Positions 15,545 through 60,080 of a stretch of 64,000 nt of DNA are shown here, in pieces (positions within the stretch are counted from its first letter, which is position 1; the number at the start of each line of letters is the position of its first letter). This DNA comes from Actinomycetes bacterium (GTDB lineage: Bacteria; Armatimonadota; SYMT01). Under the pieces are notes generated by a model. The model saw only the letters and a list, made by a program, of their open reading frames with translations, was not told where the DNA came from and did not search any database. Location of the stretch: positions 1,851 through 65,850 of the forward strand of contig JANPLG010000124.1 of NCBI GenBank assembly GCA_031426395.1, written 5' to 3'. Made by a program: the position numbers and the translations under genes.

Positions 15545-15590
15545 AGAGTAGGATTAGGATTAGGATTAGGATTAGGATTAGGAGCAGGCT
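15545..15590. repeat. (AGGATT)6 tandem hexamer array
   Basis: gtaggattaggattaggattaggattaggattaggagc. Same unit as the TAGGAT hairpin elements at 17516, 18297 and 48344. Confidence 0.85.
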
Positions 15591-18426: not shown

Positions 18427-18580
18427 TCGAACCCCACGAGGCTCGTTGTGACCGGACACCCCTGCGCTTCCGCAGGCCGGGCATGGCGGGCCTTTCCCAT
18501 AGATTTGATCGCCGCGTGCGCACTCTTCCCTTTCCCGGGTAGAGCACCGATAGAGCAGCACCCTGGCGAGGAGCGAATGA

Positions 18581-24298: not shown

Positions 24299-24630
24299 GT
24301 AGGGCACGCTCGCCGCAGCGTGCCGCTGTTCCCGCCGACCGTCACATTCTTCGCGAAGCGGACGCCGCGTTCGTGGCCGACGGGCCGGAGCGGCGTCCGG
24401 CCCCTACTCGCACGCTCGCGGTATCGGCCGTACCCCTGTAGGGCACGCTCGCCGCAGCGTGCCGCCGTCCCCGCCAACCGTCACATTCTTCGCGAAGCGG
24501 ACGCCGCCTTCGTTGAGGACGGGCCGGAACGGCGTCGACGCGGGACCGTCAGCGACAGAAGCGGCACCGGCTTCGCGGGGACGGCATCGGGTGGCGGGAG
24601 CGGCGGAACGCTGCAGCGAGCGTGCCCTAC
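24299..24630. repeat. Cluster of REP-like palindromic elements: two direct ~140-bp units, each starting with GTAGGGCACGCTCGCCGCAGCGTGCC, plus one inverted copy
   Basis: Copies at 24299-24325 and 24438-24463, and an inverted copy at 24606-24630. Each direct unit also contains ccgtcacattcttcgcgaagcggacgccgc. Confidence 0.8.
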
Positions 24631-24739
24631 ACAAGTGCTCAATGGGTGCGGCGGTGCGAGAAGTCGCTCACTGCCGCCCGTCGGTGGCGATGAAGCCGGA
24701 TTGGGAAACGTCTAGAGTGAGTGCGGTTGCCCGCAGAGG

Positions 24740-28152: not shown

Positions 28153-28479
28153 TTACCAGCCGCCGCGGCTTCCGCCGCCGCCGCCGCCGCCGCCGTAGCC
28201 ACCGCTGCGGCCACCGCCACCACCGCTGCCGCCGCGATCTTCGCGGGGGCGGGCTTCGTTGACGTTGAGGGTGCGACCGTCCATGGTCTTGCCATTCATG
28301 GCGGCAATTGCGGCTGCGGCCTGATCATCGGCCACGTCCACGAAGCCGAAGCCCTTGGAGCGTCCATCGTGGTCGGAAGGAAGGACCGCTCCGCTGCCGC
28401 CGAACGGCTCGAACGCCTGGTTCAGTTCGTTCTCGGTCGTGTTGAAGGAGAGGTTCCCTACGTATAGTCTCTTGCTCAT
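28153..28479 (-). CDS. Glycine-rich RNA-binding protein (single RRM)
   Basis: RNP2 LYVGNLS and RNP1 KGFGFVDV motifs, plus a C-terminal GGGGRSGGYGGGGGG tail. Confidence 0.9.
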   Translation of the reverse strand: MSKRLYVGNLSFNTTENELNQAFEPFGGSGAVLPSDHDGRSKGFGFVDVADDQAAAAIAAMNGKTMDGRTLNVNEARPREDRGGSGGGGGRSGGYGGGGGGGGSRGGW

Positions 28480-28776: not shown

Positions 28777-30213
28777 TTAGAGCGACTTCAATAGCAGCTC
28801 CGCCAACTCGGCCGCTTGCTGACGCAACTCCGGGACGGCTGTCGACTCCAGCCGCTCTCCGACCAGAAGGTTGCCCATCGCGAAGATGGCGGGGGCACCG
28901 CTAAGCTGATAAGCCCCGTCCGTGGCCACGCCGACGCTGGATGGATGCGGCAGGGCCAACCCGCTCTCCAAGAGGGAGCGGAGCGGAGGGCGCGACGGCA
29001 ATGCCCGCCCCGGCCCGCGGCAATCGAAGACCAGGCTAGCATACAGGGTGTCGCCGCCCAAAGCGATGCGGACTCCGTCCGCCGTCTTCGTGATGCCATC
29101 GCAGCTCGCGGCAAGGACGCGGAGCTGACCGCTCGCTTGCATCGCCTTAATGCGTGCGGCTACCTCAGCGGGCATCCGGTGGCGGTGGACGTTCCACAGG
29201 CTCTCGTAGCGCCGCAGTAGCCGCCGCTGGTCCACTGTCGGCAGCCTGCGCCAGAGGGCGACCGTATGGGGCCGAAGACCGTCCATCACCGCCTGCCATG
29301 CCACTCCCTCTGCTGCGGCTGCCCGCACCTCCCGCCGCAGGTGCCGCAGAACTCCGGAGAGGCGCGGCGCCTCCCCGAACGCCTCGAGCGACAGCTTCCA
29401 GGGCGGGGCCGGGGCCGCGTGGGGGCGTGGGAACAGCCCGCGCCGTGAGATGGCGACCACCGGCTGCCGCCACCCGGCGCGCTCCAGGCTGAGCAGCGTA
29501 TCGACGGCGGTCAATCCCGTGCCGAGGATAACCACGGGGATTTCGGATTTCGGATCTCGAATTTCGGATTTGGATGCGGGTTGACTGGAGGCAGAAGGCA
29601 CTCCGGTCTCTCCCTCGCCCCCTCGCCCCCTCGCTCCCTCGCTCCCTCGCTCAAAGTCGAACTGCCACGGCTGATGGATCACCCGTGACGACGGCTTGGC
29701 TGCCGCGAAGTGGTTGCCCAGCGCCAGCACCAGCCGATTCGAGAGCAGGCTCTCCCCTTGCGCGAAGTCGACTCGTAGACCCTCAGGCGCTTCGGCGATG
29801 CTCACCGCTTCCTGCGCGATGATGTCCAGCCGGATACCGCCAGCCTCCGCGAGGTACTGCGTCTCGGACCAGCGCTGCCGGAGGTAGTCGCCGTAGAGGC
29901 GGCGCGGCAGGAAGTCGCTTGCTGGCGGCGGCGTGATGAGCCCGGCCTGCCCCAGGCTTTCTGCGGCCGCTTCAGAGGTGAGCCAACGATGGAAGCCGTC
30001 CACCTGCTCCGGTGCGGCGCCCATGACCCCGGCACGCACGTTCAGCAGATGCTCCGGTCGCGCGGTGGCGTAGGCGGCACCGGTGGCGAGGAACGGTCCC
30101 CGGTCGATCAGGGCGATGCTCAGTGGACGGTCGGCTCCTTCCACCAACCGCCGGACAAGCTGACATCCCGCGAAGCCGCCCCCGATGATCGCGATGTGGT
30201 AATGCGGCCTCAT
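28777..30213 (-). CDS. FAD/NAD(P)-binding oxidoreductase family protein carrying an in-frame repeat-element insertion
   Basis: N-terminal IAIIGGGFAGC Rossmann motif and a second VVILGTGLTAVD motif. The linker ...SEGARGRGGEGETGVPSASSQPASKSEIRDPKSEIP... is encoded by (CTCCCTCGC)n at 29607-29652 plus (CGGATTT)n at 29538-29578. Confidence 0.65.
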   Translation of the reverse strand: MRPHYHIAIIGGGFAGCQLVRRLVEGADRPLSIALIDRGPFLATGAAYATARPEHLLNVRAGVMGAAPEQVDGFHRWLTSEAAAESLGQAGLITPPPASDFLPRRLYGDYLRQRWSETQYLAEAGGIRLDIIAQEAVSIAEAPEGLRVDFAQGESLLSNRLVLALGNHFAAAKPSSRVIHQPWQFDFERGSEGARGRGGEGETGVPSASSQPASKSEIRDPKSEIPVVILGTGLTAVDTLLSLERAGWRQPVVAISRRGLFPRPHAAPAPPWKLSLEAFGEAPRLSGVLRHLRREVRAAAAEGVAWQAVMDGLRPHTVALWRRLPTVDQRRLLRRYESLWNVHRHRMPAEVAARIKAMQASGQLRVLAASCDGITKTADGVRIALGGDTLYASLVFDCRGPGRALPSRPPLRSLLESGLALPHPSSVGVATDGAYQLSGAPAIFAMGNLLVGERLESTAVPELRQQAAELAELLLKSL

Positions 30214-30399: not shown

Positions 30400-30915
30400 A
30401 TGGCATCAAGCGATCTTCCATCCGCAGTTGCGATGCCGTTCCGTGGAGATCCGCCCATGCCCAAAAAGTACGCCGTGCTCCTCACTGAGGGGATGCGCGA
30501 GGAGCTGAACGAGCTGGTCGCCCAGGCGACGGCATCGCCGCGCGAACTGGGGCACGCCCGGATCCTCCTTCAGGCCGACCAGGCACCGGGAGGACCGGCC
30601 ACCCTGCACGGCCAGATCGCGGAGGCGGTGGCCGTCAGTGAGATGACCGTCACCCGCGTCTGTCGGCGCTTTGCGGAGGGCGGGCTGAAGTCGGCGCTCC
30701 ACCGGAAGGTGCAGCAGAACCGCAAGGCCCCCACCCTGAACCGTGCCCAGGAGGCGCTGCTGATAGCCCTGTTCCAGGGCGCCCCGCCGGAAGGGCACAC
30801 CCGCTGGTCACTGCGGCTGCTGGCGGACCAGATGGTGAAGCTGGAGCACGCCAATCGTGTCTCCCACGAGACGGTGCGCCAGGTGCTTAAGAGAGCCGGG
30901 ATGAGCCTCAGTTAG
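30400..30915 (+). mobile_element. IS630-family transposase N-terminal (HTH) fragment, a remnant with no DDE domain following
   Basis: MPKKYAVLLTEGMREELNELV...EMTVTRVCRRFAEGGLKSALHRK...GHTRWSLRLLADQMV matches the IS630 OrfA HTH_32 layout. Likely start MPKKY at 30457. No DDE catalytic region downstream; followed by a heptamer repeat and a low-GC stretch. Confidence 0.6.
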
Positions 30916-31074
30916 ATTTCGAGTTGCGGATTTCGGATTTCGGGTTGCGTGCGGTGACGATCTCTTCTGGCCCAAGGTCAAGCAAGCACGATAATTCTCA
31001 CCTGCTCCTACGGGAGGATGATGAACGGCCGAACCGAAGGTGTCAGCCGTGTCAGCCTCAAGCTCCCAGTACTG

Positions 31075-31200
31075 AACCGAAGAAAGCCGAGGGGTCGCCG
31101 GACAACTCCGTAAACCGTCATTCTGGGCACGTGACCCTTCCGGCGCGCGGACTCACTGCCCTCCCAGAATCCACCCGCACCCGTACTCTGCGTCGGAGCG
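31075..31200. repeat. ~120-bp conserved element, copy 1 (copy 2 inverted at 47545-47665)
   Basis: gacaactccg.aaaccgtca.tctgggcacg..accct.ccggcgcg.ggactcactgccctcccaga.tccacccg.acccg...t.cgcgtcggagcg shared between loci. Confidence 0.6.
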
Positions 31201-31828
31201 TTAGTGGGCCGCTCCTGACGGTCAGGGTTCGGCATCGCTTCGTAACCAGCCGAGTTCCCCTATCCCTCCATCGCGCCGACAGGGCTGCAAACGTTGGCCG
31301 GAGCAGGCGATACTTCCCTGCCCGCACAACCTTGAGAGGATTGCGGATTGCCAGCGGGGTTAGGATCGCGGTCGTCCAGGAGGCATAGTGTCGTGGGTTT
31401 CGCAAGTAGCTCCAGATCATCGAAGTCGATGCGGCATCTAGCGGTCTTTTCGACGCTGCTGATGGTCATCATCTTGGCTGCGTTCTTCGGGTCCGTAGCC
31501 AGTCGAGTGCCGATTTGGGGACTTGATGTCAATCTTGCGGGCATTCGCTTCGAGGCATTGTCTTTTGAAGCGTCCGGGGACCCGCTGCCGCTGCTCAGTC
31601 GAGGGAGTGTCCAGACGCCTGGAAGCGGCAGCTATTGGATGGTGTCGATGATGGGGCGGGTCAATCTTATGGTGGTTTCGCACCCGCAGGGGAGCGCTTC
31701 GGAGGGATGGGCCCCGTTGACCTTTGATCGACCCTCAAAGCGCAGCCGCAGTGCCGTTGAACCCTGATCCCAAGCCAACCCGCATCCCAATCCGAAATCC
31801 GAGATCCGAAATTGAGAAGGTGGACTTG

Positions 31829-33787: not shown

Positions 33788-33888
33788 GGCTCAATTGCGG
33801 ATTTCGGATTGGCAGACGGGACGGGTTCTGCTTTGCCAGCAAGTTCAGTGTCCCCACGGTGCGCCCGCGCTCCGTGGGGTTCTCCCTC

Positions 33889-40149: not shown

Positions 40150-40195
40150 AATGGAACGCGGATGACGCGGATTTAGCGGATGAGCGCGGATCAGA
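40150..40195. repeat. (GCGGATN)n heptamer array
   Basis: aacgcggatgacgcggatttagcggatgagcgcggatcag. Confidence 0.6.
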
Positions 40196-42646: not shown

Positions 42647-44179
42647 CTAGGCGAGTAGTTCCCGGACCACGCGGCCGAAGACATCGGTGAGGCGGAAGTC
42701 GCGGCCAGCGTAGCGGTAGGTCAGGCGGGTGTGGTCGAAGCCCAGTAGGTGGAGCAGGGTGGCGTGCAGGTCATGGACGTGGACGGGGTCCTGCACGGCG
42801 CGGTAGCCGAACTCATCCGTGGCGCCGTAGGCCTGCCCGCCCTTGACGCCCGCGCCGGCCATCCAGACGCTGAAGCCCCAGTGGTTGTGATCCCGGCCAT
42901 TGGCCGGCTTGCCGCCGGAAAGCTCCACCGCCGGCGTCCGGCCGAACTCGCCGCCGCAGAGGATCACGGTGTCGTCGAAGAGGCCGCGCTGCTTCAGGTC
43001 GGTGAGGAGAGCGGCGATGGGGCCGTCGCACTGGGCCGCGAGGTTCTTGTGCTCAGCGGCGATGTTGGCGTGGCTGTCCCACGGCTGGACATCGCCATGG
43101 AAGCACTGGACGAAGCGGACCCCCCGCTCGATCAGCCGCCGCGCGATGAGGAGCTGCCGGCCATGCACGCCGTCGCCGTACGCCTTGCGGATGTACTCCG
43201 GCTCCTTGCTGATATCGAAGGCGTCCGTGGCGGCGGACTGCATGCGGTAGGCCAGCTCAAAGCTCTGGATGCGCGCTTCCAGGTCCGGGTCGTCGGTCCT
43301 CGCCGCCTGGTGGCTGCGGTTGAGCGCGGTGAGGAGCGCCATCTGCCGCTGCTGGTCCTCCGGCGCGACGAACTTGCTGCGGATGTTCTCGATCAGCTCC
43401 TCCACCTTCAGACCACCCGCATGCATTTTGCGGGTGTCGATGTGCGTGCCCTGGTAGATGCCGGGCAGGAATGCGGAGCGCCAGTTTGAGACATCCGCCA
43501 CGGGCAGGCCGGGGCACATCGCCACGTAGCCGGGGAGGTCGCGGTTCTCCGTGCCGAGGCCGTAGGTGACCCAGGCACCCATGCTGGGGCGGGAGAGCCG
43601 CTCATCGCCGCAGTTCATGAGGCGCATCGACTGCTCATGGTTGGGCGTGTTGGCGTGCATGGAGCGGACGATGCAGAGGTCGTCCGCGTGCTGGGCGGTC
43701 TTGTCGAAGATCTCGCTGATCTCCAGCCCGCTCTGGCCGTACTTCTTGAACGTGAAGGGCGATGGCAGCGCGTAGCCGGTCTTCCGCTCCGTGGAGAGGT
43801 TGCCGGTTGGAAGCTGCTGCCCCTCGTACTTCTTCAGGAGCGGCTTGGGGTCGAAGGTATCGACCTGGGAGGGGCCCCCGTTCAGGTAGATATGGATAAG
43901 GTGCTTCGCCCGGGGCTGATAATGCGGAGGCCGGGGCGCAAGAGGATCTTCCGATTGCGGATTGCGGATTGCGGATTGCGGATTGGGAGACGGCTTTGAA
44001 CTGGCGGCGTGTGCGGGGCGCTCGTCGGCCAGGAGGGCGGCAAGGCCCAGGAGCGGGAGGCCGGTGCCGAGCTTGGCCAGCGCCTCCCGGCGGCTGATTA
44101 GGAACTGCTCCGGCGATAGTCCCGTTTCTTGGGAGATCGCCTGCCGTAGTTCGGAATGCATAGCGTCTAGTGGTGTCAT
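42647..44179 (-). CDS. DUF1501 family protein (Tat-secreted, sulfatase-like fold) with a repeat-encoded N-terminal insert
   Basis: Tat motif SRREALAKLGTG. DUF1501 conserved blocks (HANTPNHEQS..., FGRTP). Residues ~55-70 (NPQSAIRNPQSED) are encoded by (CGGATTG)5 at 43951-43992. Confidence 0.75.
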   Translation of the reverse strand: MTPLDAMHSELRQAISQETGLSPEQFLISRREALAKLGTGLPLLGLAALLADERPAHAASSKPSPNPQSAIRNPQSEDPLAPRPPHYQPRAKHLIHIYLNGGPSQVDTFDPKPLLKKYEGQQLPTGNLSTERKTGYALPSPFTFKKYGQSGLEISEIFDKTAQHADDLCIVRSMHANTPNHEQSMRLMNCGDERLSRPSMGAWVTYGLGTENRDLPGYVAMCPGLPVADVSNWRSAFLPGIYQGTHIDTRKMHAGGLKVEELIENIRSKFVAPEDQQRQMALLTALNRSHQAARTDDPDLEARIQSFELAYRMQSAATDAFDISKEPEYIRKAYGDGVHGRQLLIARRLIERGVRFVQCFHGDVQPWDSHANIAAEHKNLAAQCDGPIAALLTDLKQRGLFDDTVILCGGEFGRTPAVELSGGKPANGRDHNHWGFSVWMAGAGVKGGQAYGATDEFGYRAVQDPVHVHDLHATLLHLLGFDHTRLTYRYAGRDFRLTDVFGRVVRELLA

Positions 44180-44322
44180 CTAGGGTTGGAAGCTGAAGTT
44201 GAAGGCGTGAACGACTCTGTTCCCCTTCGATGCCGCGTTGGCTGGGATTTTCGCTCGGACGCGCAAGGGTGGCTATCTCTGTCCGGGGGACAATTCGAAA
44301 TCCGCAATCCGCAATTGACCTG

Positions 44323-47300
44323 TCAGTCGACGAACATCATCTCGTTGGTGAGGAACAGCACTTGCGCGAGCTGCTCCCATGCGTTGAGCGGAGATTTGGA
44401 ACCAGCCGTGGCTCCAACGAACGCGAGTGCCGCACGGGTCTCCTCTGAAGTGGCGGGGCGCTGGAATAGGGCGCGGTAGAGGCCGGCGACCCGCGCCTCA
44501 TCCGTCTCCGCGCCCTTGACTTGCGCCGCAAGCGCCCGCGCCTGCTCCACCACAAAGGGCGAGTTCAATCCGAAGAGGGCCTGCTGCGGGACGATGGTCC
44601 GGGGCCGCCGCTCCACGGAGTTGTCCGGCTGCGCGAAGTTGAAGGCGCGGAACGCCTCCGGCAGGCTCTGACGGTCGACCAGGGCGTAGACGGTGCGGCG
44701 CCGGTTCCCTGGATCGAAGGCGTCCCGCAGGGCTCGTCCGAACTGCGCGCGGTCCAGCCGTCCGGAGGCCGCCACCAGCGTGTCGCGCATCTCCTCGAAG
44801 TCGAGGCGGCGGCGGCGGAAGCGCCAGAGGAGCCGGTTCTCGGGATCCTTCAATTGCGGAATGCGGAATGCGGAATGCGGAATTGGGGAGCGGGTTGGCT
44901 GGTGGCGGGAACTGTGCTTCTCGACCCCAGGTTGATGCGGGCGGGACGCCCGCGCTCCGGGGGGCGGAATGAGGGCGGATGACTGGCGGTAGGTGGCGCT
45001 GTTGACCATGAGGCGGTGGAGCTTCTTGAGCGACCACGCTAGGCCATCCGATGTCGCTCCCTCTCCCCCTCGCTCCCTCGCTCCCTCGCCAAGGGGGGCG
45101 GAGAAGCGCGCGGCGAGGTAATCCAGCAACTCCGGGTGCGTGGGCGGCGCGCTGCGGCTGCCGAAGTCGCTGGGTGTGGCGACCAGCGGCTCGCCGAAGT
45201 GGTGCATCCAGACGCGATTGACCATCACGCGGGCCGTGAGCGGGTTGCGCGGGTCGGTGATGGAGCGGGCCATCTCCAGCCGCCCACTTCCAAGGTTGAA
45301 GGAGGGCTGGCGGGTGCCGGTGAGCACCGCCAGGAACCGCCGCGGCACGGTTTCACCAGGAGTTGACGGATTGCCCCGCGTGAAGACGCGCGGTGGGTGC
45401 AACTCCTGGCTGTCGTTGAGCACCATGGCGCGGGGCGGGGCACCGGCCTGCTGTACCGCTAGAACATCGAGGTTCTGCTGCATCCCGCCGTACGCGTCCT
45501 TCTCGCCACGGGACATGTAGTAGTAAGTGTGGTTTCGCGGGAACCAGGCGGGACTCTCGGTGGAGGTCACCAGCTCGAGGAGCTGCCGCTGCTCCGGCGT
45601 CATGGCGGGGGCGCTGGGGGCCTTTCCGGCCTGGTATGTCTGCTTAAGCAGATCCGCATAGACCCTGGCTACGGCCTTCCGGTCGTCCAGCTTGGCGGCG
45701 GTGAGGGCTTGCAGGACGACCCTGTTCACCTGCCCCGTAGCGGTTCCGGCAGGGCGCATAACCAGGCGTGCCAAAACTGCCGCCGAAGCCTCGATAAAGC
45801 CCTTCTCCGGGAGGTCCGCCAGCGCCCGGTAGGGGCTGAAGAGCGGGTCATCCGGGGTGGCGCGTCGCTGGATGAGCCGCCGCCACCGGGCCACAATCTG
45901 CGGGCGGAGGTCGCCGGGGTCGAGGGAGAGGAAGAAGATCGCCGTCTCCAGCGGGTCCGGGTCCGTGGTGGCGGCGTGGAAGAAGTAGTCGCCGGCGCGC
46001 TCCCTCGCCGTCTCGCTCAGCAGCGTGAACTGCTTGCTCTCGAAGGCCGCCAGCTCTTGCTTCTTCGGCTCGTACTGCTTCGCGTAATCCGCGTAGCCAG
46101 GCACCTGCTCCGGCTGCGCGATGAGCGGCAGGTCGAGCGGCGCCTCGCTGGCGGCGAAGACGCCGTAGAGGGAGTAGTAATCCTTGATCGGGATGGCGTC
46201 GTACTTATGGTCGTGGCAGCGGGCGCAGCTCACCGTGAGGCCCAGGAGACCACGGCTCACGGTGTCGATCTTGTCGTCGATTTGATCGTGGACGTTGTTG
46301 TCGTACTGCCGCCCAAGGGTGAGGAACCCCATGGCGGCGAGGCGCCATGCCTCGCCCTTAAGGTCGAGCTGGTCCGCGGCGAGCTGCTCCTGGACGAAGC
46401 GGTCATAGGGGGTGTCCGCGTTCAGGGCGCGGATGACGTAGTCCCGGTAGGTGTAGGCGTAGGGACGGATCCGCGCATCGCCGTACTGGAGCACGCCGTC
46501 CTTGGTGTCCGCGTACCGGGCGACATCCAGCCAGTGCCGTCCCCACCGCTCTCCGTAAGAGGGAGAGGCGAGGAGGCGGTCGACCACCTTCTCGTAGGCG
46601 TCATGGGAGCGGTCGGCCAGGAAGGCATCCGCTTCCTCAGCCGTGGGCGGGAGGCCGGTGAGGTCATAGGTCACCCGTCGCAGCAGTGTGCGGCGGTCCG
46701 CAGGCGGCGAGGGGGCGAGGCCCGCCTTTTGCAGCCGCGCCAGGACGAAGGCGTCGATGGGATTCCGGGCCGGGAGCTTGGAGTTTGCCACCGCAGGCAC
46801 GGCCGGCTTTCGGAGCGGCTGGTAGGCCCAGTGGTTCCTTGCCTCACGGACGATGCGCACCTGGTCGCCCAGCACCATACCGCTCCGGGTCTTGCTCTCC
46901 GGCCATGGTGCCCCGAGGCGGATCCACTCCTCCAGCGCCTCGATCTTGGCCTTCGCGAGGCGCTTGCCGGGCGGCATCACCACATCTTCATGGTGGACGG
47001 CGCGGACGAGCCAGCTTGAGAGAGGGTCGCCCGGCACCAGGCCGGGGCCGCGAGCGCCGCCCTTGAGGGTCGCCTCGCGGGTGTCGAGACGCAGCCCGCC
47101 CTGCTGAAGCTTGGGGCCGTGGCAGGACTGGCATTCCTGGAGCAGCATCGGCCGCACCTGCTTCTCGAAGATCTCCAGGCCCGCTGCGGAGGGACCTATG
47201 GAGGGACCCTGTGGGGCAGCCACGCGGTTGGTTGGCGCGGCCACAGAAGCCGTGGTCGCCACGACTCCGCCGTAAAGACTGATGGCAATCCATCCCACTA

Positions 47301-47346
47301 ACCGCCCGGATTGTCCTATCCGCCTGATCTGCCCTGTTCGCACCAC
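44323..47346 (-). CDS. PSCyt1/DUF1549/DUF1553 (planctomycete-cytochrome-c-type) protein with two in-frame repeat insertions
   Basis: N-terminal CQSCHGPK...LRLDT (PSCyt1), central DUF1549 blocks and a C-terminal DUF1553. (CGGAATG)4 at 44851-44894 and (CTCCCTCGC)n at 45061-45092 lie inside the reading frame. Confidence 0.75.
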   Translation of the reverse strand: MVRTGQIRRIGQSGRLVGWIAISLYGGVVATTASVAAPTNRVAAPQGPSIGPSAAGLEIFEKQVRPMLLQECQSCHGPKLQQGGLRLDTREATLKGGARGPGLVPGDPLSSWLVRAVHHEDVVMPPGKRLAKAKIEALEEWIRLGAPWPESKTRSGMVLGDQVRIVREARNHWAYQPLRKPAVPAVANSKLPARNPIDAFVLARLQKAGLAPSPPADRRTLLRRVTYDLTGLPPTAEEADAFLADRSHDAYEKVVDRLLASPSYGERWGRHWLDVARYADTKDGVLQYGDARIRPYAYTYRDYVIRALNADTPYDRFVQEQLAADQLDLKGEAWRLAAMGFLTLGRQYDNNVHDQIDDKIDTVSRGLLGLTVSCARCHDHKYDAIPIKDYYSLYGVFAASEAPLDLPLIAQPEQVPGYADYAKQYEPKKQELAAFESKQFTLLSETARERAGDYFFHAATTDPDPLETAIFFLSLDPGDLRPQIVARWRRLIQRRATPDDPLFSPYRALADLPEKGFIEASAAVLARLVMRPAGTATGQVNRVVLQALTAAKLDDRKAVARVYADLLKQTYQAGKAPSAPAMTPEQRQLLELVTSTESPAWFPRNHTYYYMSRGEKDAYGGMQQNLDVLAVQQAGAPPRAMVLNDSQELHPPRVFTRGNPSTPGETVPRRFLAVLTGTRQPSFNLGSGRLEMARSITDPRNPLTARVMVNRVWMHHFGEPLVATPSDFGSRSAPPTHPELLDYLAARFSAPLGEGARERGGEGATSDGLAWSLKKLHRLMVNSATYRQSSALIPPPGARASRPHQPGVEKHSSRHQPTRSPIPHSAFRIPQLKDPENRLLWRFRRRRLDFEEMRDTLVAASGRLDRAQFGRALRDAFDPGNRRRTVYALVDRQSLPEAFRAFNFAQPDNSVERRPRTIVPQQALFGLNSPFVVEQARALAAQVKGAETDEARVAGLYRALFQRPATSEETRAALAFVGATAGSKSPLNAWEQLAQVLFLTNEMMFVD

Positions 47347-47544: not shown

Positions 47545-47665
47545 CTGACCGGCCAACAAAGGGAGCGCTCCGACGCGCAACGCGGGTCCGGGTGGAATCT
47601 GGGAGGGCAGTGAGTCCACGCGCCGGTAGGGTGTCGTGCCCAGATTGACGGTCTCCGGAGTTGTC
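47545..47665. repeat. ~120-bp conserved element, copy 2 (inverted relative to 31075-31200)
   Basis: Reverse complement matches the 31075-31200 copy at about 85% identity. Lies in a 480-bp non-coding gap. Confidence 0.6.
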
Positions 47666-47830
47666 CACTGACCGGTCATTCGCCCCACGAGCCATAGACA
47701 GCGGCCATGTGCCGCGTTCGATCACGGTGGAGGCTCAGTGGCCCCGCAAAGCCCCACGGATACAGTGACTTACGGTTACGGAAGCCGCCTGTATGGTTCT
47801 GGGGGCGAAGGACCGGTCGAGATTGCGTGG

Positions 47831-48343: not shown

Positions 48344-48405
48344 CAACTTCCTAATCCTAATCTTAATCCTACTCCGTGCAACCGAGCGGGGTTGCAGGCA
48401 CGGAT
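48344..48405. repeat. Truncated member of the AAGTTCCTAATC...(TAGGAT)n element family, with a short hairpin
   Basis: aacttcctaatcctaatcttaatcctactcc followed by gtgcaaccgagcggggttgcaggcac. Confidence 0.65.
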
Positions 48406-51289: not shown

Positions 51290-51318
51290 CGGTCATTGAA
51301 GCTACTTCTGACAGTTGC

Positions 51319-51578
51319 GAATGGGCGAGAGGGAGAATGGGCGAGAGGGAGAATGGGCGAGTGGGAGACGGCTACGAGGTGTCCGCTCTCGATCTCCCTT
51401 TCCCTCTCAACCGTTTCCCCATTTCGCCGGAATGACGCAGTTTCGTCTACGCGAGGTGTTGGGTGGCCCGTCACGTTGCTCTTGATGTAGTGATTCGTGC
51501 GTAGAGGAATAGGAGACGGCTGCGGCGCTGGCAGCCAACGATCGCCCACTCTCCCGCTCACCCATTCTCCCATTCGCT
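51319..51578. repeat. Inverted-repeat (MITE-like) element: (GAATGGGCGAGAGGGA)n arm, ~170-bp lower-GC core, complementary arm
   Basis: Left arm gaatgggcgagagggagaatgggcgagagggagaatgggcgagtgggagacgg. Right arm tcgcccactctcccgctcacccattctcccattcgc. Sits between sepF and proC. Confidence 0.7.
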
Positions 51579-51594
51579 CGAACACAGCAGTCTC

Positions 51595-52954: not shown

Positions 52955-53026
52955 ACCACTCACCCACTCACCCACTCACCCACTCACCCACTCACCCACT
53001 CACCCACTCACCCACACACCCACTCA
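52955..53026. repeat. (CACTCACC)9 octamer microsatellite
   Basis: Eight perfect units plus one variant (cacacacc), immediately 3' of the antiporter stop. Confidence 0.9.
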
Positions 53027-54442
53027 GGCGGGGTCTGCGGCGCGTGACGGGGAGACCCGCCGGCGTTCCGCGCGGGTGAGGGCATCCAGAATCGGCGTGG
53101 TCATAAAGGTGGTCACTAGCGCCATGAGCACCAGCATGGCGAAGAGGGTCGGCGAGATCACGCCGAGGTCGAGGCCGATGTTGAGCACGATCAGTTCCAT
53201 CAGTCCCCTCGTGTTCATCAGGATCCCGAGCGCGGAGGCGTTGCGCCAGTCCATGCCAGTCAGCCGCGCCGCGAGGGTGGAGCCGCCCCACTTGCCGAGG
53301 CAGGCGATGACGATGATGAGGGCGCAGATCCCCCACTGGTCGCCCTGGATCAGGCCGATCTGCGTCCGCAAGCCGCTGAACGCGAAGAACGCCGGCAGGA
53401 ACATCACGATCACGAGGTCGTGGAGCCGGTTGCGCAGGACGCGGGCGACCGTGGAGTCGTGCGGAATGATCGCGCCGATGAGGAACGCGCCGAAGAGCGT
53501 GTGGATGCCGATGAACTCCGTAGCGAGGCTGGAGAGCAGCAGCACAATGCAGACCAGCGCCATCATCGGCTGGTCGATGGTCGCTTGCCCCTCGTACCTG
53601 GCGGTCCACCGCTTGACCAGGGGCCGCACGATCAGGAGCATCCCGGCGATGTAGAGCACCGTGAAGAGGGCGGTCCAACCGGCGGTCGCCAGCTTGGCTT
53701 GTGTGACGCCGACCACCACGGCCAGCAGGCACCAGGCGGTCACATCTCCCACTGCCGCGCACGTCATCGACATGGTGCCGAGACGGGTGCGCTCCATCCC
53801 CCGGTCTTGAAGGATGCGGGCCAGCACCGGGAAGGCGGTGACGGACATCGAGATGCCGAGGAAGAGCGCGAAAGCTACGAATGGCACGTCCTGCGTGGAG
53901 AGCAGCGGGTAGAGCCAGAGTGCCATCCCGCTGCCCAGCAAAAACGGCACCACGATGCTGGCATGCGCGATGGTGAGGGTGGCGTGCGCCTCGCGCTGGA
54001 AGAGGTCCGTCTCAAGCTCCAGGCCGACCACGAACATGAAGAGCAGCACGCCGATCTGGGCCAGCGTCCCGATCAGCGGCATCGTCGCGGTTGGGAAGAG
54101 GTAGGTCGCGAGTTCCGGGGAGAGCTTCCCGAGCAGCGATGGACCCAGGAGTATGCCGGCGAGCACCTCGCCAATCACGGCGGGCTGATGGAAGTAGTGG
54201 AAGAGAGCGCCCACCGCCCGTGACGCCACGATAATGGTGACCAGCGAGATGAGAAGCGGCAGCAGGCTGCTGGAGTGCGAGACTTCTCCCTGCCCGAACT
54301 TCGCGACTCCCGCAGGCGGCGGCGCAATGAGGCCGGCACCGGCAGAGCGGATGAGGAAGAACCCAGCCACGCCCAGCACCATCATGGCCAGGTAGCCCAG
54401 GATGATTCGTTGCCGCCGGTTGCCGGGATCGGATGCCTGCAC
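53024..54442 (-). CDS. Monovalent cation:proton antiporter (CPA1/CPA2 Na+/H+ exchanger family)
   Basis: About 12 TM helices with Na_H_Exchanger-like blocks (IGEVLAGILLGPS...). Confidence 0.8.
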   Translation of the reverse strand: MQASDPGNRRQRIILGYLAMMVLGVAGFFLIRSAGAGLIAPPPAGVAKFGQGEVSHSSSLLPLLISLVTIIVASRAVGALFHYFHQPAVIGEVLAGILLGPSLLGKLSPELATYLFPTATMPLIGTLAQIGVLLFMFVVGLELETDLFQREAHATLTIAHASIVVPFLLGSGMALWLYPLLSTQDVPFVAFALFLGISMSVTAFPVLARILQDRGMERTRLGTMSMTCAAVGDVTAWCLLAVVVGVTQAKLATAGWTALFTVLYIAGMLLIVRPLVKRWTARYEGQATIDQPMMALVCIVLLLSSLATEFIGIHTLFGAFLIGAIIPHDSTVARVLRNRLHDLVIVMFLPAFFAFSGLRTQIGLIQGDQWGICALIIVIACLGKWGGSTLAARLTGMDWRNASALGILMNTRGLMELIVLNIGLDLGVISPTLFAMLVLMALVTTFMTTPILDALTRAERRRVSPSRAADPA

Positions 54443-54495
54443 GGGAAAGCCTCGGAGCCTCGTGGCGTGTCAATCTGCTTCTGAAAGTGGCGGAA

Positions 54496-54590
54496 TGCGA
54501 GAGAGTGGGGGGATTGGGGGAAAGGGAGACATCGTGCCCGAAACCGTCTCCCATTCACCCTTTCTCCCACTCTCCCATTCGGCCGGAAAG
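54496..54590. repeat. ~40-bp-stem hairpin of the GGGAGA/TCTCCC repeat family
   Basis: ggcggaatgcgagagagtggggggattgggggaaagggagac - 15-nt loop - gtctcccattcaccctttctcccactctcccattcggcc. Lies between the halogenase stop and the antiporter start; plausible terminator. Confidence 0.7.
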
Positions 54591-54610: not shown

Positions 54611-56026
54611 CTACGCGGGCGCGCCAGCGAGTTGCTTGTCGGAGACGGCCTTCGCGTCGCCGGATGACTCGGCGGCTTCGCGGGCGGCGACTTCCGCCTG
54701 GAACTCGACAATCATCTCATCGAGCGGCTCGAAGACTTCCTCGATGCCCTCCAGCCAGAGGTTGCCGATAAGCAAATCGGTGAGGTGCCCCTTGAAGTGC
54801 GGGTACTGCTTGACGAAGCGACCGAAGCTGAAGCCCTCGTAGTAGGCGATGACCAGCTTGCGCATGTAGTCCATGCCGCGGTTGAAGTCCGGCCCCCACT
54901 TGCCCAACTGCGCTTCGGAGGTATCGCCGTTGCGGATGCCTTCCACCACTGCGTCCGCCGCCATTTCGCCGCTCTTGAGCGCCAGGAGAACGCCAGAGGA
55001 GTAGAGCGGGTCGAGGAAGCCGTGGGCATCGCCGACCAGCACCCAGCCGTCGCCGGCGCACTGGGTGGCCCGGTAGCTGTAGTCCTTCGTGGCGAAGAAC
55101 TTGTCGCACCGCTCGCCCTGCATCACGCGGCGCTTGACCTCTGGGCAGAGATCCAGCTCCTCGTTGTAGATCGTCTCGTGGTCCTTGTTGTCCTTGAACA
55201 GCTCGTCGAAGGCGCGGACGATGCCGACGCTGACGATGTCGTCATGGAGGGGTATGTACCAGAACCAGCCCTTCTTGCCCTGGGTCTGCAGCACGATGGT
55301 CGCGCCCGCGTCCCGGCCCTCGTCCCGGTAGGCGCCCTTCCAGTAGGTCCAGACGGCACCCTTCTTGAGTTCCGTGTCCTTGTCCAAGATCTTGAACTTG
55401 CTACCGATCAGGTGGCTTTGGCCGCTGGCGTCCACTACCACCTTTGCCCGCACCTCTTCCATGCGGCCGTCTTCATACTGCACCTTGACGCCGACGGCCC
55501 GCTCGCCTTCGAAGAGGATCTCGCGGATGCGGGCACCCTGGTTGACCTGCACGCCATGCTCCTCGGCGTTCTGGAGCATCATCAGGTCGAACTCGCTGCG
55601 GAGAACCTGCCAGGTTTCAGAGCACTCATGTGGGCGGTGCTCCGTGAAGTAGAACGGCTCTGAGAGCACGCCGCGCTGGCTGACGAACTGGACAGAGCAT
55701 TTCTTGACGAAATGGCTGTTCTTCAACTTGTCTAGCATCCCCAGCCGCTTCAGCGTCCAATAGGTCTGCGGGATGAGCGACTCGCCGATATGGAAGCGCG
55801 GGAAGTGGTCGCGCTCAAACAGCCGGACCTTCACCCCTTGCTGGGCGATCAAGGTGGAGACGGTGGCGCCGGCAGGCCCCCCGCCGATTACGACGACATC
55901 GGTCTCGCTAAAGGTCTCGGTGACGGTCTCGGTCTCTTGGGTGCTAGGGCTGGCGCTCATCTGAGAGTTCCTCTCTTGCAGAGTGGGATGTGGGTGGTGC
56001 GAGAATTGACAATTTTCAATTGACAA
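54611..56026 (-). CDS. Flavin-dependent halogenase-family (tryptophan-halogenase-like) FAD oxidoreductase
   Basis: VVIGGGPAGAT...ERDHFPRFHIGESL dinucleotide motif, WxWxIP motif (KGWFWYIPL) and a downstream GFLDPLYSSG block. Confidence 0.7.
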   Translation of the reverse strand: MSIENCQFSHHPHPTLQERNSQMSASPSTQETETVTETFSETDVVVIGGGPAGATVSTLIAQQGVKVRLFERDHFPRFHIGESLIPQTYWTLKRLGMLDKLKNSHFVKKCSVQFVSQRGVLSEPFYFTEHRPHECSETWQVLRSEFDLMMLQNAEEHGVQVNQGARIREILFEGERAVGVKVQYEDGRMEEVRAKVVVDASGQSHLIGSKFKILDKDTELKKGAVWTYWKGAYRDEGRDAGATIVLQTQGKKGWFWYIPLHDDIVSVGIVRAFDELFKDNKDHETIYNEELDLCPEVKRRVMQGERCDKFFATKDYSYRATQCAGDGWVLVGDAHGFLDPLYSSGVLLALKSGEMAADAVVEGIRNGDTSEAQLGKWGPDFNRGMDYMRKLVIAYYEGFSFGRFVKQYPHFKGHLTDLLIGNLWLEGIEEVFEPLDEMIVEFQAEVAAREAAESSGDAKAVSDKQLAGAPA

Positions 56027-56046
56027 TTGTCAATTGCAAATCGGGG
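56008..56046. promoter_or_regulatory. CAATTGACAATTGTCAATTG palindrome / TTGACA repeats at the halogenase start, candidate MarR operator
   Basis: ttgacaattttcaattgacaattgtcaattgcaaatcgg spans the 28-bp gap between the marR stop and the halogenase start codon, on the minus strand. Confidence 0.4.
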
Positions 56047-59118: not shown

Positions 59119-59130
59119 CGACCGGTCAGT

Positions 59131-59175
59131 CAATTTCGAATTTCGGATTTCGAGTTTCGAATTGGCAGGCAGGTC
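59131..59175. repeat. CAATT-(TCGNATT)n-GGCAGG heptamer repeat element
   Basis: caatttcgaatttcggatttcgagtttcgaattggcaggcagg. Confidence 0.7.
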
Positions 59176-59411
59176 AGCTCTAGACGGGCGTTGGTCCCGT
59201 CTCTCCATCCCTCAATCTCGCCTTCTCTCAATCTCATCCTGACCGGTCACCCAAGTGCGGATTTCGGCTTCGGGGCACCTGGAAAGCCGGTGTCGTTGTC
59301 GGCATTCGGAAGGTGGGTGCGGGCGGGACGCCCGCGTTCCGTGGACCCTCACGCAGATTGGCGCTATCTCCCGTCTTTGAGCGGGGGATAGCGCCTGCTC
59401 GCTCACCTGGC

Positions 59412-59618
59412 TCAGAGGACGCCGAAGAGGCCGCGCTGCTGCAGGACCACCGCCCCGAGCGCCAGTAAGAGGAAGAGGACACCCATGGCGACCGCGCACC
59501 CAGGTGCCAATTGGGAGCCGAAGAAGAGCGACATGGCGTGGGACATCTCCGTCCGCTGCGCGATCAGGTAGACCCCGATCCCCACGAAGAGCAGCACCCC
59601 GATTGCGAAGAGGATCAT
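59412..59618 (-). CDS. Small two-TM membrane protein (hypothetical)
   Basis: MILFAIGVLLFVGIGVYLIAQ...AVAMGVLFLLLALGAVVLQ. No homology recognised. Confidence 0.3.
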   Translation of the reverse strand: MILFAIGVLLFVGIGVYLIAQRTEMSHAMSLFFGSQLAPGCAVAMGVLFLLLALGAVVLQQRGLFGVL

Positions 59619-60080
59619 CGGCCGTTTCTCATGTTGACTACAGCGCGCACGTCCGCTGGGCACCTGGTGCTGCGTAAGGCCCCTTCGTATCACCGTTGCG
59701 GCAAGTGGTTGTAAATCGCTGGGTCAACTGTAACCTGCTGAGTCAATCAGTGCCGGGCGCATCTCGATTTGACGCTCGGCCTCATGCTCGGGCCGCGCTG
59801 TGCCAGTGCTGGCGGCATCCGGCGGGTTTTCAGCCTCATCGAGCTATGCAGCATGGCGTCCATCGGTTGTCCAGGCACCGGCGCGGCTTGCTCGTCGATG
59901 ACCGCTCCTTCACCGGACGCGGGGCGGGTAGGTGGAGACGGAGAGCCGGATGAACGCCTCCAGCCAATCCGCAATTGATTGGCAGGAGACCGTGCGGGTG
60001 GCCGTCGAAGCGACCGTTGGTGCGCCGTGGCGATCTCGACTTTGGCGCACGTGAATTGCGAATCAGAGGCGGGGAGCGAT

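What the first reader, a model, noticed from the sequence alone, without database searches (positions are those of the whole stretch)
43951..44894. Family of CAATTG-(CGGATTN)n-GG(G/C)AGACGG heptamer-array elements scattered through intergenic regions and coding sequences
Copies seen at 29538-29578, 30915-30950, 31786-31815, 33792-33819, 40150-40195, 43951-43992, 44291-44320, 44851-44894, 59131-59175 and 59963-59990. The core heptamer varies by copy (CGGATTT, CGGATTG, CGGAATG, TCGAATT), but the boundaries (CAATTG on one side, TTGG(C/G)AGACGG on the other) are conserved. That points to a single element family with internal repeat expansion, not independent microsatellites. GGGAGACGG also terminates the GGGAGA-family arms at 51350-51369 and 51516-51529, so the two families may be one composite system. 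More than ten copies in 64 kb is a very high density.
Basis: seen in the sequence. Interest (0 to 1): 0.65.

Follow-up and report, generated by a model that had tools for sequence, protein, structure and literature searches.

The report
Short heptamer-repeat modules at gene borders
The window holds about eight short blocks of the 7-base repeat CGGA(A/T)T(G/T), placed just after genes, just before genes and in-frame inside three proteins; they belong to a little-studied class of heptamer repeats found in many bacterial phyla, whose function is unknown.

Summary
Eight of the ten listed copies are true arrays of the heptad CGGAWTK (3-6 units). One is a one-unit remnant and one (40150) is a different repeat with a 9-10 nt period. 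The TCAATTK outer boundary is significant. The inner TTGGSAGACGG boundary is looser.

Three arrays are in-frame insertions in protein loops or linkers (FAD/NAD-binding protein, DUF1553 protein, DUF1501 linker). The others lie directly after stop codons or directly before starts.

The same heptad arrays occur in many phyla and in viral contigs. There they are sharply limited to about 4-5 units and mostly sit as convergent inverted pairs, (CGGAWTK)n-loop-(MAWTCCG)n. One such hairpin is present or absent between related Oscillospiraceae genomes.

The closest described relatives are the GGGAATC (Xanthomonas) and GGGGAYT (Nostoc) heptameric repeats. These share the NGGANTN template, size, pairing and placement, and their function is also unknown. 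The window's unit has no G-runs, so quadruplex formation cannot be the common feature.

Best reading: slippage-prone, indel-type repeat modules that persist where tolerated, with convergent pairs closing long RNA stems. No transposase, Rfam family or arm covariation was found.

Verdict: a new variant of a known kind, of moderate interest.

The parts
29538..29578 (+). Heptamer array (GGATTTC x5.6) lying in-frame inside the FAD/NAD(P)-binding protein gene (28777-30213, minus strand). Translated as ...ASKSEIRDPKSEI...
   Evidence: TRF; translation. It is absent from the 70%-identical homologue P0361 and from 9 other homologues and from the relative's DNA L325.
29606..29652 (+). Companion octamer array (CTCCCTCG x5.4) in the same protein insertion, translated as EGARGRGGEGE. 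94% identical over 36 nt to the octamer array at 45054-45089.
   Evidence: The relative's DNA has the seed GAGGGCGAGCGGGC at this spot, which suggests in-situ expansion.
30915..30950 (+). Heptamer array that starts at the stop codon of the HTH_32 gene (30400-30915, plus strand). The G-rich strand is the sense strand.
31786..31815 (-). Heptamer array with the C-rich strand in sense, ending about 10 nt upstream of the ribosome-binding site and ATG of the acetyl-CoA synthetase gene. 93% complementary over 40 nt to 29547-29586.
33791..33819 (+). TCAATTG + CGGATTT + CGGATTG + GCAGACGG, 4 nt after the stop codon of the acetyl-CoA synthetase gene, between convergent genes.
43951..43992 (+). Perfect (CGGATTG)x4.7 array inside the DUF1501 gene (42647-44179, minus strand). 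It lies between the twin-arginine signal peptide and the start of the Pfam domain and is translated as PNPQSAIRNPQS.
   Evidence: Predicted to pair with 44291-44320 in the mRNA.
44291..44320 (-). Heptamer array in the 143-nt spacer between the DUF1553 gene stop and the DUF1501 gene start. The G-rich strand is in sense on the minus-strand transcript. AATT on both sides.
44850..44894 (+). TCAATTG + (CGGAATG)x4 lying in-frame inside the PSD1 (DUF1553) domain of the 1007-aa protein (44323-47346, minus strand). Translated as SPIPHSAFRIPQL and part of a roughly 34-aa insertion.
   Evidence: Pfam matches PSD1 in two stretches. Absent from 14 of 15 aligned homologues at that site.
45054..45089 (+). 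Octamer array (TCGCTCCC x4.5) lying in-frame at a second variable site of the same DUF1553 protein, translated as EGARERGGEGA.
59130..59175 (+). TCAATTT + (CGAATTT/CGGATTT)x4 + GGCAGGCAGG, 12 nt after the stop of the dienelactone hydrolase gene. It is followed by a small hairpin and by an octamer/16-mer array at 59200-59235.
59963..59990 (-). Remnant (CCAATCCGCAATTGATTGGCAGGAGAC) with one unit plus both boundary motifs, at the start of the gamma-glutamyltranspeptidase gene.
31337..31349 (+). Two-unit fragment (AGGATTGCGGATT) inside the 805-nt spacer that is bracketed by the arrays at 30915 and 31786.
59258..59270 (+). Two-unit fragment (CGGATTTCGGCTT) in the spacer after the array at 59130.

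Best explanation
What it is. The arrays are copies of a length-bounded repeat module: about 4-6 units of CGGAWTK, with the first unit usually TCAATTK. This is the planctomycete version of a cross-phylum class of NGGAWTN heptameric repeats.

How it most likely works. The modules arise and change at the DNA level, as small insertions/deletions and by slippage in a 7-nt register, and they have no dedicated gene of their own. They persist only where they do little harm:
- right after stop codons, with the G-rich strand in sense;
- right before or just inside the 5' end of the next gene, with the C-rich strand in sense;
- in-frame in surface loops or linkers of proteins. All four unit types are free of stop codons in all six frames.

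Because a G-rich array and a downstream C-rich array are complementary, a transcript that carries both can close a stem. In the window's DUF1501 mRNA the predicted stem is about 17 bp. Elsewhere the arms are 28-35 nt. The stem loops out the intergenic spacer or the translation-start region. Any effect on expression (processing, stability, start-site occlusion) follows from that stem.

Shown: the family, its enrichment, its placement, the in-frame insertions, the bounded size, the convergent polarity, one presence/absence polymorphism, and the cross-phylum spread.

Inferred: slippage as the source of unit turnover, neutrality or selfishness, and formation of the RNA stem in vivo.
For: - Enrichment and boundary in the window.
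- In-frame insertions relative to homologues: DUF1553 protein and FAD-binding protein. An orthologue at 62% identity carries (ATTCCGC)x4 at a different site of the same protein.
- In-frame arrays inside large ORFs that I read by eye, without a family search, as helicase-, PurL- and PSCyt2-like proteins of other phyla.
- All four unit types are stop-free in six frames.
- Bounded length: mode of 5 units. In viral contigs 118 loci have at least 4 units and 13 have at least 5, against 25 and 13 for a control heptamer.
- Convergent polarity: 49 '+ then -' pairs against 8 '- then +' in genome loci, and 34 against 8 in viral loci.
- The whole hairpin is an indel. It is present in L013 and L135 and absent, with spacers of only 5-19 nt, in relatives with 88-92% identical flanking protein.
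- Orthologous hairpins differ in unit types (L089 vs L108).
- The two arms do not match in the order of unit variants beyond what their composition predicts (0.788 observed, 0.781 +/- 0.010 after shuffling). Loops are not conserved. Both points argue against strong selection on a precise structure.
- Predicted long-range stem in the DUF1501 mRNA.
- The same size, pairing, placement and strand rule are described for GGGAATC and GGGGAYT repeats, most of which are transcribed in Xanthomonas axonopodis pv. citri (PMC4692102).
Against: - Plain slippage does not explain why the same heptad template and the same CAATTG end recur from Planctomycetota to Betaproteobacteria.
- It does not explain why arrays stop so sharply at about 5 units.
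- It does not explain why the polarity of pairs is so biased.
- These three features fit a sequence-specific factor or a selected function better than neutral repeats.
- The mechanism of insertion is unknown. No target-site duplication or mobilising enzyme was identified.
- No transcript or strain-level data exist for this organism.
Confidence: 0.45

Rival explanations
1. Selected cis-acting RNA element. Convergent arrays are kept because the stem they form (28-35 nt arms) punctuates polycistronic transcripts. RNase III-type cleavage or the stem-loop itself would separate or stabilise cistrons, or control access to a start codon lying in the loop, as in the stems of 23S rRNA intervening sequences.
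For: - Arrays lie at cistron borders in runs of co-directional genes.
- By a crude ORF heuristic, 48 of 67 short-loop hairpins have a long ORF ending at the hairpin, and 14 of 67 have an ORF that starts in the loop.
- The DUF1553-to-DUF1501 junction carries such a pair both in the window and in a Gemmataceae genome.
- Arm length is narrow, 28-35 nt.
- The Coxiella 23S IVS has tandem heptamers at the RNase III cut site (PMC4990558).
- The Xanthomonas repeats are transcribed.
Against: - No matching of unit variants between arms.
- The variable positions change by transversion (K, W). Such changes never give G-U pairs, so their pattern is uninformative about selection for RNA pairing (sequence).
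- Many arrays are solitary or lie inside coding sequence.
- The hairpin is dispensable in close relatives.
- No Rfam family matches.
- Hairpin stability alone does not explain the polarity bias.
Confidence: 0.25
2. Contingency loci. The arrays are hypermutable heptanucleotide repeats. Gain or loss of one unit shifts the reading frame or changes promoter spacing, which switches genes on and off (phase variation).
For: - The unit length is not a multiple of 3.
- Arrays lie in or next to the 5' ends of genes.
- In Bordetella hinzii, (CAATCCG)x8-11 follows the ATG of three fimbrial subunit genes, so the unit number sets the frame of the signal peptide.
Against: - The window arrays are short (3-6 units) and sit in or beside housekeeping genes (acs, DUF1501/DUF1553, FAD protein, ggt), or after stop codons where the frame does not matter.
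- Most arrays elsewhere are intergenic convergent pairs.
- Two B. hinzii assemblies show the same copy number at one locus.
- Rehm et al. judged phase variation unlikely for the related repeats.
Confidence: 0.1
3. Cis-sites of a trans-acting machinery. The heptads are read by a conserved protein or ribonucleoprotein that either moves the DNA lying between convergent arrays (true MITE/REPIN-like mobility) or adds the repeats to DNA ends. The 4-5 unit size and the CAATTG end would then reflect that machinery.
For: - The same template, size limit, polarity and terminus recur across phyla.
- Indel behaviour of the whole hairpin.
- Some loops carry a gene: a four-helix-bundle / 23S-IVS-protein-like ORF in L022 and an AhpD-like ORF in L021 (my reading of the sequence; jackhmmer for the four-helix-bundle ORFs).
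- The dominant '+ then -' order is the order expected if G-rich repeats were added to both 3' ends of a break (inference).
Against: - No transposase, reverse transcriptase or four-helix-bundle gene is consistently nearby. There are 6 four-helix-bundle ORFs in 120 genome loci and none in 1.09 Mb of viral loci.
- Loops are not homologous between copies, unlike MITEs.
- No clear target-site duplication.
Confidence: 0.12
4. Low-complexity coincidence, or G-quadruplex-forming repeats as proposed for the Xanthomonas and Nostoc relatives.
For: The related GGGAATC and GGGGAYT repeats form quadruplexes in vitro.
Against: - Shuffle statistics in the window and control heptamers in viral contigs exclude chance.
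- CGGAWTK has no run of three G, so it cannot supply G-tracts for a quadruplex (sequence).
Confidence: 0.02

Closest known systems
GGGAATC (Xanthomonas) and GGGGA(C/T)T (Nostoc) heptameric repeats, Rehm et al. 2015, PLoS One (PMC4692102)
   Same: - Same heptad template. GGGANTN, and GGGGATT rotated to GGGATTG, compare with CGGAWTK. Positions 2-4 and 6 are fixed and positions 5 and 7 vary.
- Mostly about 4 units.
- Many convergent inverted pairs.
[quoted passage not shown]
- Length and sequence vary between related species.
- Function unknown.
   Different: - Position 1 is C, so there is no G-run and no quadruplex potential.
- Found here in many phyla and in viral contigs, not only in two lineages.
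- Documented here as in-frame insertions in proteins.
- A conserved TCAATTK/CAATTG terminal unit.
Cyanobacterial short tandemly repeated heptanucleotides (Calothrix PCC 7601) and the general excess of heptameric SSRs in bacteria. Both are cited in PMC4692102; the label 'STRR' and the attribution to Mrazek 2007 are from my own knowledge.
   Same: Tandem heptamers that are over-represented in non-coding DNA and have no known function.
   Different: Different units and different taxa. No bounded length, polarity or protein insertion is described in what I could read.
REP/BIME and REPIN elements of proteobacteria (REPIN: PMC3116915, listed; their properties are from my own knowledge)
   Same: Short extragenic repeats that lie after genes and between cistrons, often as inverted pairs forming hairpins. 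Present or absent between relatives.
   Different: REP arms are unique palindromes recognised by RAYT transposases, not tandem heptads. No RAYT-like gene was seen here. REPs are not known as in-frame protein insertions.
Rickettsia palindromic elements (own knowledge)
   Same: Small repeats inserted in-frame into protein-coding genes and translated as extra loops.
   Different: RPEs are 100-150 bp palindromic consensus sequences confined to one genus. These modules are 30-45 bp tandem heptads found in many phyla.
23S rRNA intervening sequence of Coxiella burnetii (PMC4990558)
   Same: Tandem heptameric repeats (GACAGAT x2-3, number varies between strains) at the base of a stem cut by RNase III. 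The loop carries an S23p (four-helix-bundle) ORF, as does one heptad hairpin found here (L022).
   Different: Different heptamer, located inside rRNA. The window has no such ORF and no rRNA context.
Phase-variable simple-sequence contingency loci (own knowledge)
   Same: A repeat unit that is not a multiple of three, sitting at the 5' end of genes. The Bordetella hinzii fimbrial genes found here have exactly this layout with the same heptamer.
   Different: The window arrays are short, mostly outside reading frames or in housekeeping genes, and often form inverted pairs.

Membership tests
NGGANTN heptameric repeats (Rehm et al. 2015) | Heptamer unit with positions 1-4 and 6 conserved (GGGA.T.) and positions 5 and 7 variable | tested here: inconclusive
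   Positions 2-4 and 6 (GGA, T) are fixed and positions 5 (W) and 7 (K) vary. Position 1 is C, not G.
NGGANTN heptameric repeats (Rehm et al. 2015) | Arrays mostly about 4 units long | tested here: met
   3.4-5.6 copies in the window. Mode of 5, with 4 next, in 466 arrays elsewhere. Sharp drop above 4 perfect units.
NGGANTN heptameric repeats (Rehm et al. 2015) | Frequent convergent inverted pairs | tested here: met
   49 '+-' against 8 '-+' in genome loci and 34 against 8 in viral loci. In the window the complementary pairs are long-range: 305-312 nt, 531 nt and about 2 kb, plus the bracketing pairs 30915/31786 and 59130/59963, about 0.8 kb apart.
NGGANTN heptameric repeats (Rehm et al. 2015) | [quoted passage not shown] | tested here: met
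   Window copies 30915, 33791, 59130 and 44291 lie downstream with the G-rich strand in sense. Copies 31786 and 59963 lie upstream with the C-rich strand in sense. In other genomes arrays are depleted from ORF interiors compared with random positions: 48% against 77% by a crude measure.
NGGANTN heptameric repeats (Rehm et al. 2015) | Runs of at least 3 G, giving G-quadruplex potential | tested here: not met
   No unit type contains GGG (sequence).
MITE / REPIN-type non-autonomous transposable element | Terminal inverted repeats | tested here: met
   Convergent arrays with a common outer end (CAATTG/ATTG). Many copies are solitary arrays, however.
MITE / REPIN-type non-autonomous transposable element | Target-site duplication | tested here: inconclusive
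   Comparison of filled and empty sites (L013/L135 vs L122-L134) allows TTA, TA or AATT, but these are part of the unit sequence and only one site was examined.
MITE / REPIN-type non-autonomous transposable element | Internal sequence shared between copies of a genome | tested here: not met
   Loops differ in length (5-611 nt) and sequence. Window copies share little beyond the array.
MITE / REPIN-type non-autonomous transposable element | Cognate transposase with matching ends | tested here: not met
   None in the window: only a solo HTH_32 ORF, with no DDE remnant next to it. None between distant array pairs. The rest of the genome could not be searched.
MITE / REPIN-type non-autonomous transposable element | Presence/absence polymorphism between relatives | tested here: met
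   An Oscillospiraceae hairpin is present in L013 and L135 and absent in L122-L134.
Phase-variable contingency locus | Repeat number differs between strains or cells | not testable with these tools
   No close relative of the window exists in the searched collections. The best protein hits are 63-70% identical. A flank-anchored metagenome scan found nothing. Two B. hinzii assemblies are identical at one locus.
Phase-variable contingency locus | Long array in the promoter or 5' coding region of a surface or contingency gene | tested here: not met
   The window arrays have 3-6 units and lie in or near housekeeping genes or after stop codons. The feature is met by the Bordetella hinzii fimbrial genes.
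23S rRNA IVS-like element | Inserted in an rRNA helix, stem cut by RNase III, often with an S23p ORF | tested here: not met
   No rRNA in the window. No four-helix-bundle ORF in the window. Cleavage is not testable.
Any Rfam RNA family | Match at the gathering score | tested here: not met
   Only two tRNAs matched, both in other loci. Nothing matched at the arrays.

The most novel reading that the evidence does not exclude
The heptad arrays are the cis-sites of a single, still unidentified machinery shared by many bacterial phyla. This would be a protein or ribonucleoprotein that reads about five NGGAWTN heptads in a fixed polarity and either moves or excises the DNA between convergent arrays, or builds the arrays on DNA ends.

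This reading would account for four features together:
- the same unit from Planctomycetota to Betaproteobacteria;
- the conserved CAATTG terminus;
- the sharp limit of 4-5 units;
- the 5:1 polarity bias.
Probability: 0.12. Interest if true: 0.9.

Novelty: new variant of a known kind. Interest (0 to 1): 0.55.

Why it matters
If one heptad template recurs with the same size, polarity and terminus across many phyla, then a common cause is still missing: a factor, a repair route or a selected RNA role. The one detailed study read here (Rehm et al. 2015, on two lineages) explained these repeats by G-quadruplexes. The C-first variant described here cannot form quadruplexes, which removes that explanation as the unifying one.

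Practical consequences:
- The modules add extra peptides to real proteins ([21 protein letters not shown]).
- They split Pfam domain matches.
- They generate spurious small ORFs that pipelines label as "fimbrin".
- They can set the reading frame of genes, as in the Bordetella hinzii fimbrial genes.
- They may shape operon transcripts through long stems.

Tried and rejected
- Rfam, gathering threshold, on the window and six array-rich loci: nothing at the arrays.
- Association with four-helix-bundle (23S IVS protein / Avd-like) genes: 6 ORFs in 120 genome loci, about 2-4 of them within a few hundred nt of an array, and none in 1.09 Mb of viral loci. Not a general link.
- Transposase between distant convergent arrays: only ordinary genes. 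DDE remnant next to the HTH_32 ORF: none.
- Arm-to-arm matching of unit variants, as a test of selection for pairing or of fold-back copying: no signal beyond composition.
- 'Unique flank' GCGGGTTGRCT as proof of copy-and-paste: probably a decayed unit, because it also ends arrays in two unrelated metagenome contigs.
- Strain-level copy-number variation of the window's DUF1501 array in metagenomes: no hit.
- Look-up of the window's own contig by protein: not on record.
- Peptide search with the translated array: returned mostly short spurious ORFs and gave little information on real in-CDS insertions.
- Literature searches for the heptamer strings and for Planctomycetes plus heptanucleotide: nothing relevant.
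- G-quadruplex idea: rejected from the sequence, since there is no GGG.
- Intrinsic terminator idea: by eye, no consistent T-run after the 3' arms.
- The ORF-span test for coding against non-coding placement is crude in high-GC DNA.

Full report
**Setting.** The window has about 65% G+C. It carries ordinary chromosomal genes: ThrRS, RecF, a ccmB/C/E/F cluster, PurE/PurK, glutamate dehydrogenase, SepF-ProC, a DUF1553/DUF1501 pair, acetyl-CoA synthetase and others. The best protein hits are planctomycetes (Isosphaeraceae, Gemmataceae and unnamed relatives) at only 63% identity. The exact DUF1553 protein is on record from one NCBI contig of 67,758 bp. No close relative was therefore available for this organism.

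**The observation.** Tandem Repeats Finder reports seven period-7 arrays of the CGGATTK/CGGAATG type. An eighth, at 33791-33819, has two units between clear boundaries. CGGATTNCGGATT with up to 2 mismatches occurs 30 times against 4.7 +/- 2.0 in shuffles.
- The copy listed at 40150 is a 9-10 nt period repeat with a CGGAT core.
- The copy at 59963 is a one-unit remnant.
- The outer boundary is real: TCAATTK followed by a unit occurs 5 times exactly against 0 expected.
- The inner boundary is looser.
- GGAGACGGCT follows one heptamer array and one octamer array, 4 occurrences against 0.37 expected.
- The window is also full of hexamer (TAGGAT) and octamer (GGGAG-type) arrays.

**Where the arrays lie.**
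- Three arrays start 0-12 nt after a stop codon, with the G-rich strand in sense (30915, 33791, 59130).
- One lies in the spacer after the DUF1553 gene (44291).
- Two lie just upstream of the next gene's start, with the C-rich strand in sense (31786, 59963).
- Three are inside genes.

**The three in-gene copies are in-frame insertions.**
- In the DUF1553 protein, Pfam matches PSD1 in two stretches. A 16-sequence alignment shows two insertions that most homologues lack: LGEGARERGGEGATSDG (octamer array) and a roughly 34-aa segment containing SPIPHSAFRIPQL (heptamer array).
- A 62%-identical orthologue carries SAIPHSAFRIP at the other variable site. Its DNA there is (ATTCCGC)x4.
- The FAD/NAD-binding protein has a 27-aa insertion relative to a 70%-identical homologue and nine others.
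- At the DNA level that relative has GAGGGCGAGCGGGC where the window has the octamer array, which suggests in-situ expansion of a seed. The heptamer part has no counterpart.
- In DUF1501 the array codes for PNPQSAIRNPQS, between the twin-arginine signal and the Pfam domain. Insertion status against homologues was not tested.
- All four unit types are free of stop codons in all six frames. Half of all heptamers share this property.

**Complementary pairs in the window.** G-rich and C-rich arrays are complementary.
- 43954-43985 pairs with 44291-44315 (92%), enclosing the DUF1501 5' UTR, start codon and signal peptide.
- 29547-29586 pairs with 31773-31812 (93% over 40 nt).
- 31772-31801 pairs with 33798-33827.
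- 44291-44318 pairs with 44850-44877 (all).
- An RNA fold of the DUF1501 5' region closes the predicted 17-bp stem between the two arrays.
- The spacers 30916-31785 and 59176-59962 are each bracketed by a G-rich array at their start and a C-rich array at their end.

**Beyond the window.** The hits come from Planctomycetota, Verrucomicrobiota, Acidobacteriota, Nitrospirota, Bacteroidota, Chloroflexota, Clostridia, Calditrichia, Gemmatimonadota, proteobacteria and others. In these loci:
- Arrays have mostly 4-5 units: 3:26, 4:67, 5:107, 6:20, 7 or more: 8.
- Neighbouring arrays are mostly convergent, (CGGAWTK)n-loop-(MAWTCCG)n: 49 against 8 for the opposite order.
- Loops are 5-611 nt (median 44) and unrelated to one another.

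Viral contigs give the same picture, 34 against 8. They also allow a control:

| Perfect units | Target CGGAWTK | Control GTCGAWK | Control GCATWGK |
|---|---|---|---|
| at least 4 | 118 | 25 | not scanned |
| at least 5 | 13 | 13 | not scanned |

 The excess therefore lies specifically in short, bounded arrays, unlike ordinary microsatellites.

**Placement elsewhere.** By a crude ORF heuristic, 48 of 67 short-loop hairpins have a long ORF ending at the hairpin. In 14 of 67 an ORF starts in the loop and reads through the 3' arm. A Gemmataceae genome has such a pair at the same DUF1553-to-DUF1501 junction, with the DUF1501 start codon in the loop.

In-frame arrays also occur in large ORFs of other phyla. 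I read these by eye, without a family search, as HrpA-like, PurL-like and PSCyt2-like proteins. Solitary in-gene arrays are mostly in the C-rich sense.

**Tests of mechanism.**
- The two arms of a hairpin share unit composition, but the order of unit variants is not matched: 0.788 observed against 0.781 +/- 0.010 after shuffling units within an arm.
- The variable positions change by transversion (K, W).
- No Rfam family matches.
- No transposase lies between distant pairs. The only transposase-like ORF in the window is a solo HTH_32 protein with no DDE remnant beside it.
- Four-helix-bundle (23S IVS protein-like) ORFs lie inside or next to some hairpins (L022, L112), but they are not a general partner.
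- A hairpin between a methyltransferase gene and ecfA in an Oscillospiraceae genome (256-nt spacer), and a diverged homologous copy in another genome (282 nt), are absent from relatives whose EcfA is 88-92% identical. In those relatives the spacer is 5-19 nt. The whole module is therefore an insertion or deletion at the DNA level.
- Orthologous hairpins in two related genomes keep their place but differ in unit types (L089 and L108).

**What is known.** Rehm et al. 2015 (PMC4692102) described GGGAATC repeats in Xanthomonas and GGGGA(C/T)T repeats in Nostoc.
- Xanthomonas has about 185 per genome, consensus GGGANTN, mostly four units, with 70-75 convergent pairs.
- In Xanthomonas axonopodis pv. 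citri most are transcribed. Length varies between the two Xanthomonas species compared.
- Function is unknown and G-quadruplexes were proposed.
- Rotated, GGGGATT is GGGATTG, one base away from CGGATTG.
- The window's family fits this template and these rules but has no G-run.
- The paper also cites the general excess of heptameric repeats in bacteria and the Calothrix heptanucleotides.
- The Coxiella 23S IVS has GACAGAT x2-3 at the RNase III cut site, upstream of an S23p ORF (PMC4990558).

**Bordetella hinzii.** (CAATCCG)x8-11 follows the ATG of three fimbrial subunit genes and ends in CCGCAATTGA, the same terminus as in the window. The unit number therefore sets the reading frame.

**Verdict.** The family is real and is one family. 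I read it as a new, C-first variant of the NGGANTN heptameric repeats. It is documented here across many phyla, with a bounded size, a fixed polarity, a conserved terminal unit and in-frame protein insertions.

My best explanation is indel-type, slippage-prone repeat modules that persist where tolerated and whose convergent pairs form long RNA stems. I give it 0.45, because the recurrence of the template, the size limit and the polarity are not explained by slippage alone. A selected RNA-processing role (0.25), a trans-acting machinery (0.12) and phase variation (0.10) remain open.

Noticed in passing
window 17520-17646 and 18298-18427 (also 15537-15588 and 48349-48375): Two elements of about 130 nt, each directly after a stop codon inside the ccm gene cluster (after the small CcmD-like ORF that follows the second ccm membrane-protein gene, and after the CcmE gene). 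The arms are hexamer arrays (TCCTAA/TAGGAT variants). The 58-60 nt loops are similar, and an inner hairpin changes on both sides (GTTCC/GGAAC vs GATCC/GGATC). The RNA folds are very stable (z = -8.4 and -8.3). The hexamer shares the GGATT core with the heptamer.
   Followed up: partly
window 51310-51592 and 54485-54590: Hairpins whose arms are octamer or 16-mer arrays (GAATGGGCGAGAGGGA x3 against CCCACTCT-type; GGGAG-type against CTCCC-type). They lie between the SepF and ProC genes and between the Na+/H+ exchanger and halogenase-like genes. Fold z-score is about -5.
   Followed up: partly
window 52956-53026: (CCACTCAC)x8.9, the longest simple array in the window. It overlaps the first bases (the stop-codon end) of the minus-strand Na+/H+ exchanger ORF (53024-54469).
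   Followed up: no
window 24299-24386, 24437-24525, 24543-24631 (inverted), 15237-15270: An 88-nt repeat with a core of GTAGGGCACGCTCGCCGCAGCGTGCC. Two direct copies and one inverted copy lie in one 1.35-kb spacer, and a partial copy lies at 15240. This is a separate REP-like family.
   Followed up: no
window 31100-31200 and 47566-47666: A 101-nt repeat, 86% identical and in inverted orientation. One copy lies inside the spacer bracketed by heptamer arrays; the other lies in the spacer upstream of the DUF1553 gene.
   Followed up: no
window 44937-44959 and 59319-59341 (partial copy at 33862-33879): The GC-rich motif GCGGGCGGGACGCCCGCGYTCCG occurs downstream of two heptamer arrays in the same orientation. 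One copy is translated as part of the DUF1553 insertion.
   Followed up: partly
window 56004-56036: (AATTGAC/AATTGTC)x4.7, a palindromic 14-mer array between the halogenase-like gene and a MarR-family regulator gene. It looks like an operator.
   Followed up: no
window 5049-10271 (minus strand): A 1740-aa ORF with a coding-like codon-position G+C pattern and no Pfam match at E <= 1e-5.
   Followed up: no
L321 2128-2210, L323 about 2084-2146, L324 about 2032-2100 (Bordetella hinzii): (CAATCCG)x8-11 directly after the ATG of three fimbrial subunit genes, so the unit number sets the frame of the signal peptide. This is a phase-variation layout. It also explains why JGI pipelines call array-only ORFs 'major type 1 subunit fimbrin'.
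   Followed up: partly
L013 2737-2973 and L135 about 2215-2475 vs L122-L134 about 2481-2501: A heptad hairpin element lies between a SAM-methyltransferase gene and ecfA in two Oscillospiraceae genomes and is absent from relatives at 88-92% protein identity. In the filled sites the upstream gene ends inside the first array and the downstream gene has a new AAGGAG ribosome-binding site.
   Followed up: yes
L022 3441-3893 and L112 6-379: Genes for four-helix-bundle proteins (23S rRNA IVS protein-like) lie between heptad arrays or run into them. This recalls the Coxiella IVS, where heptamers precede the S23p ORF.
   Followed up: partly
window 28153-28479 (minus strand): Small RRM_1 RNA-binding protein. 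Its glycine-rich tail is encoded by a (GCC)x25 array at 28159-28235.
   Followed up: no
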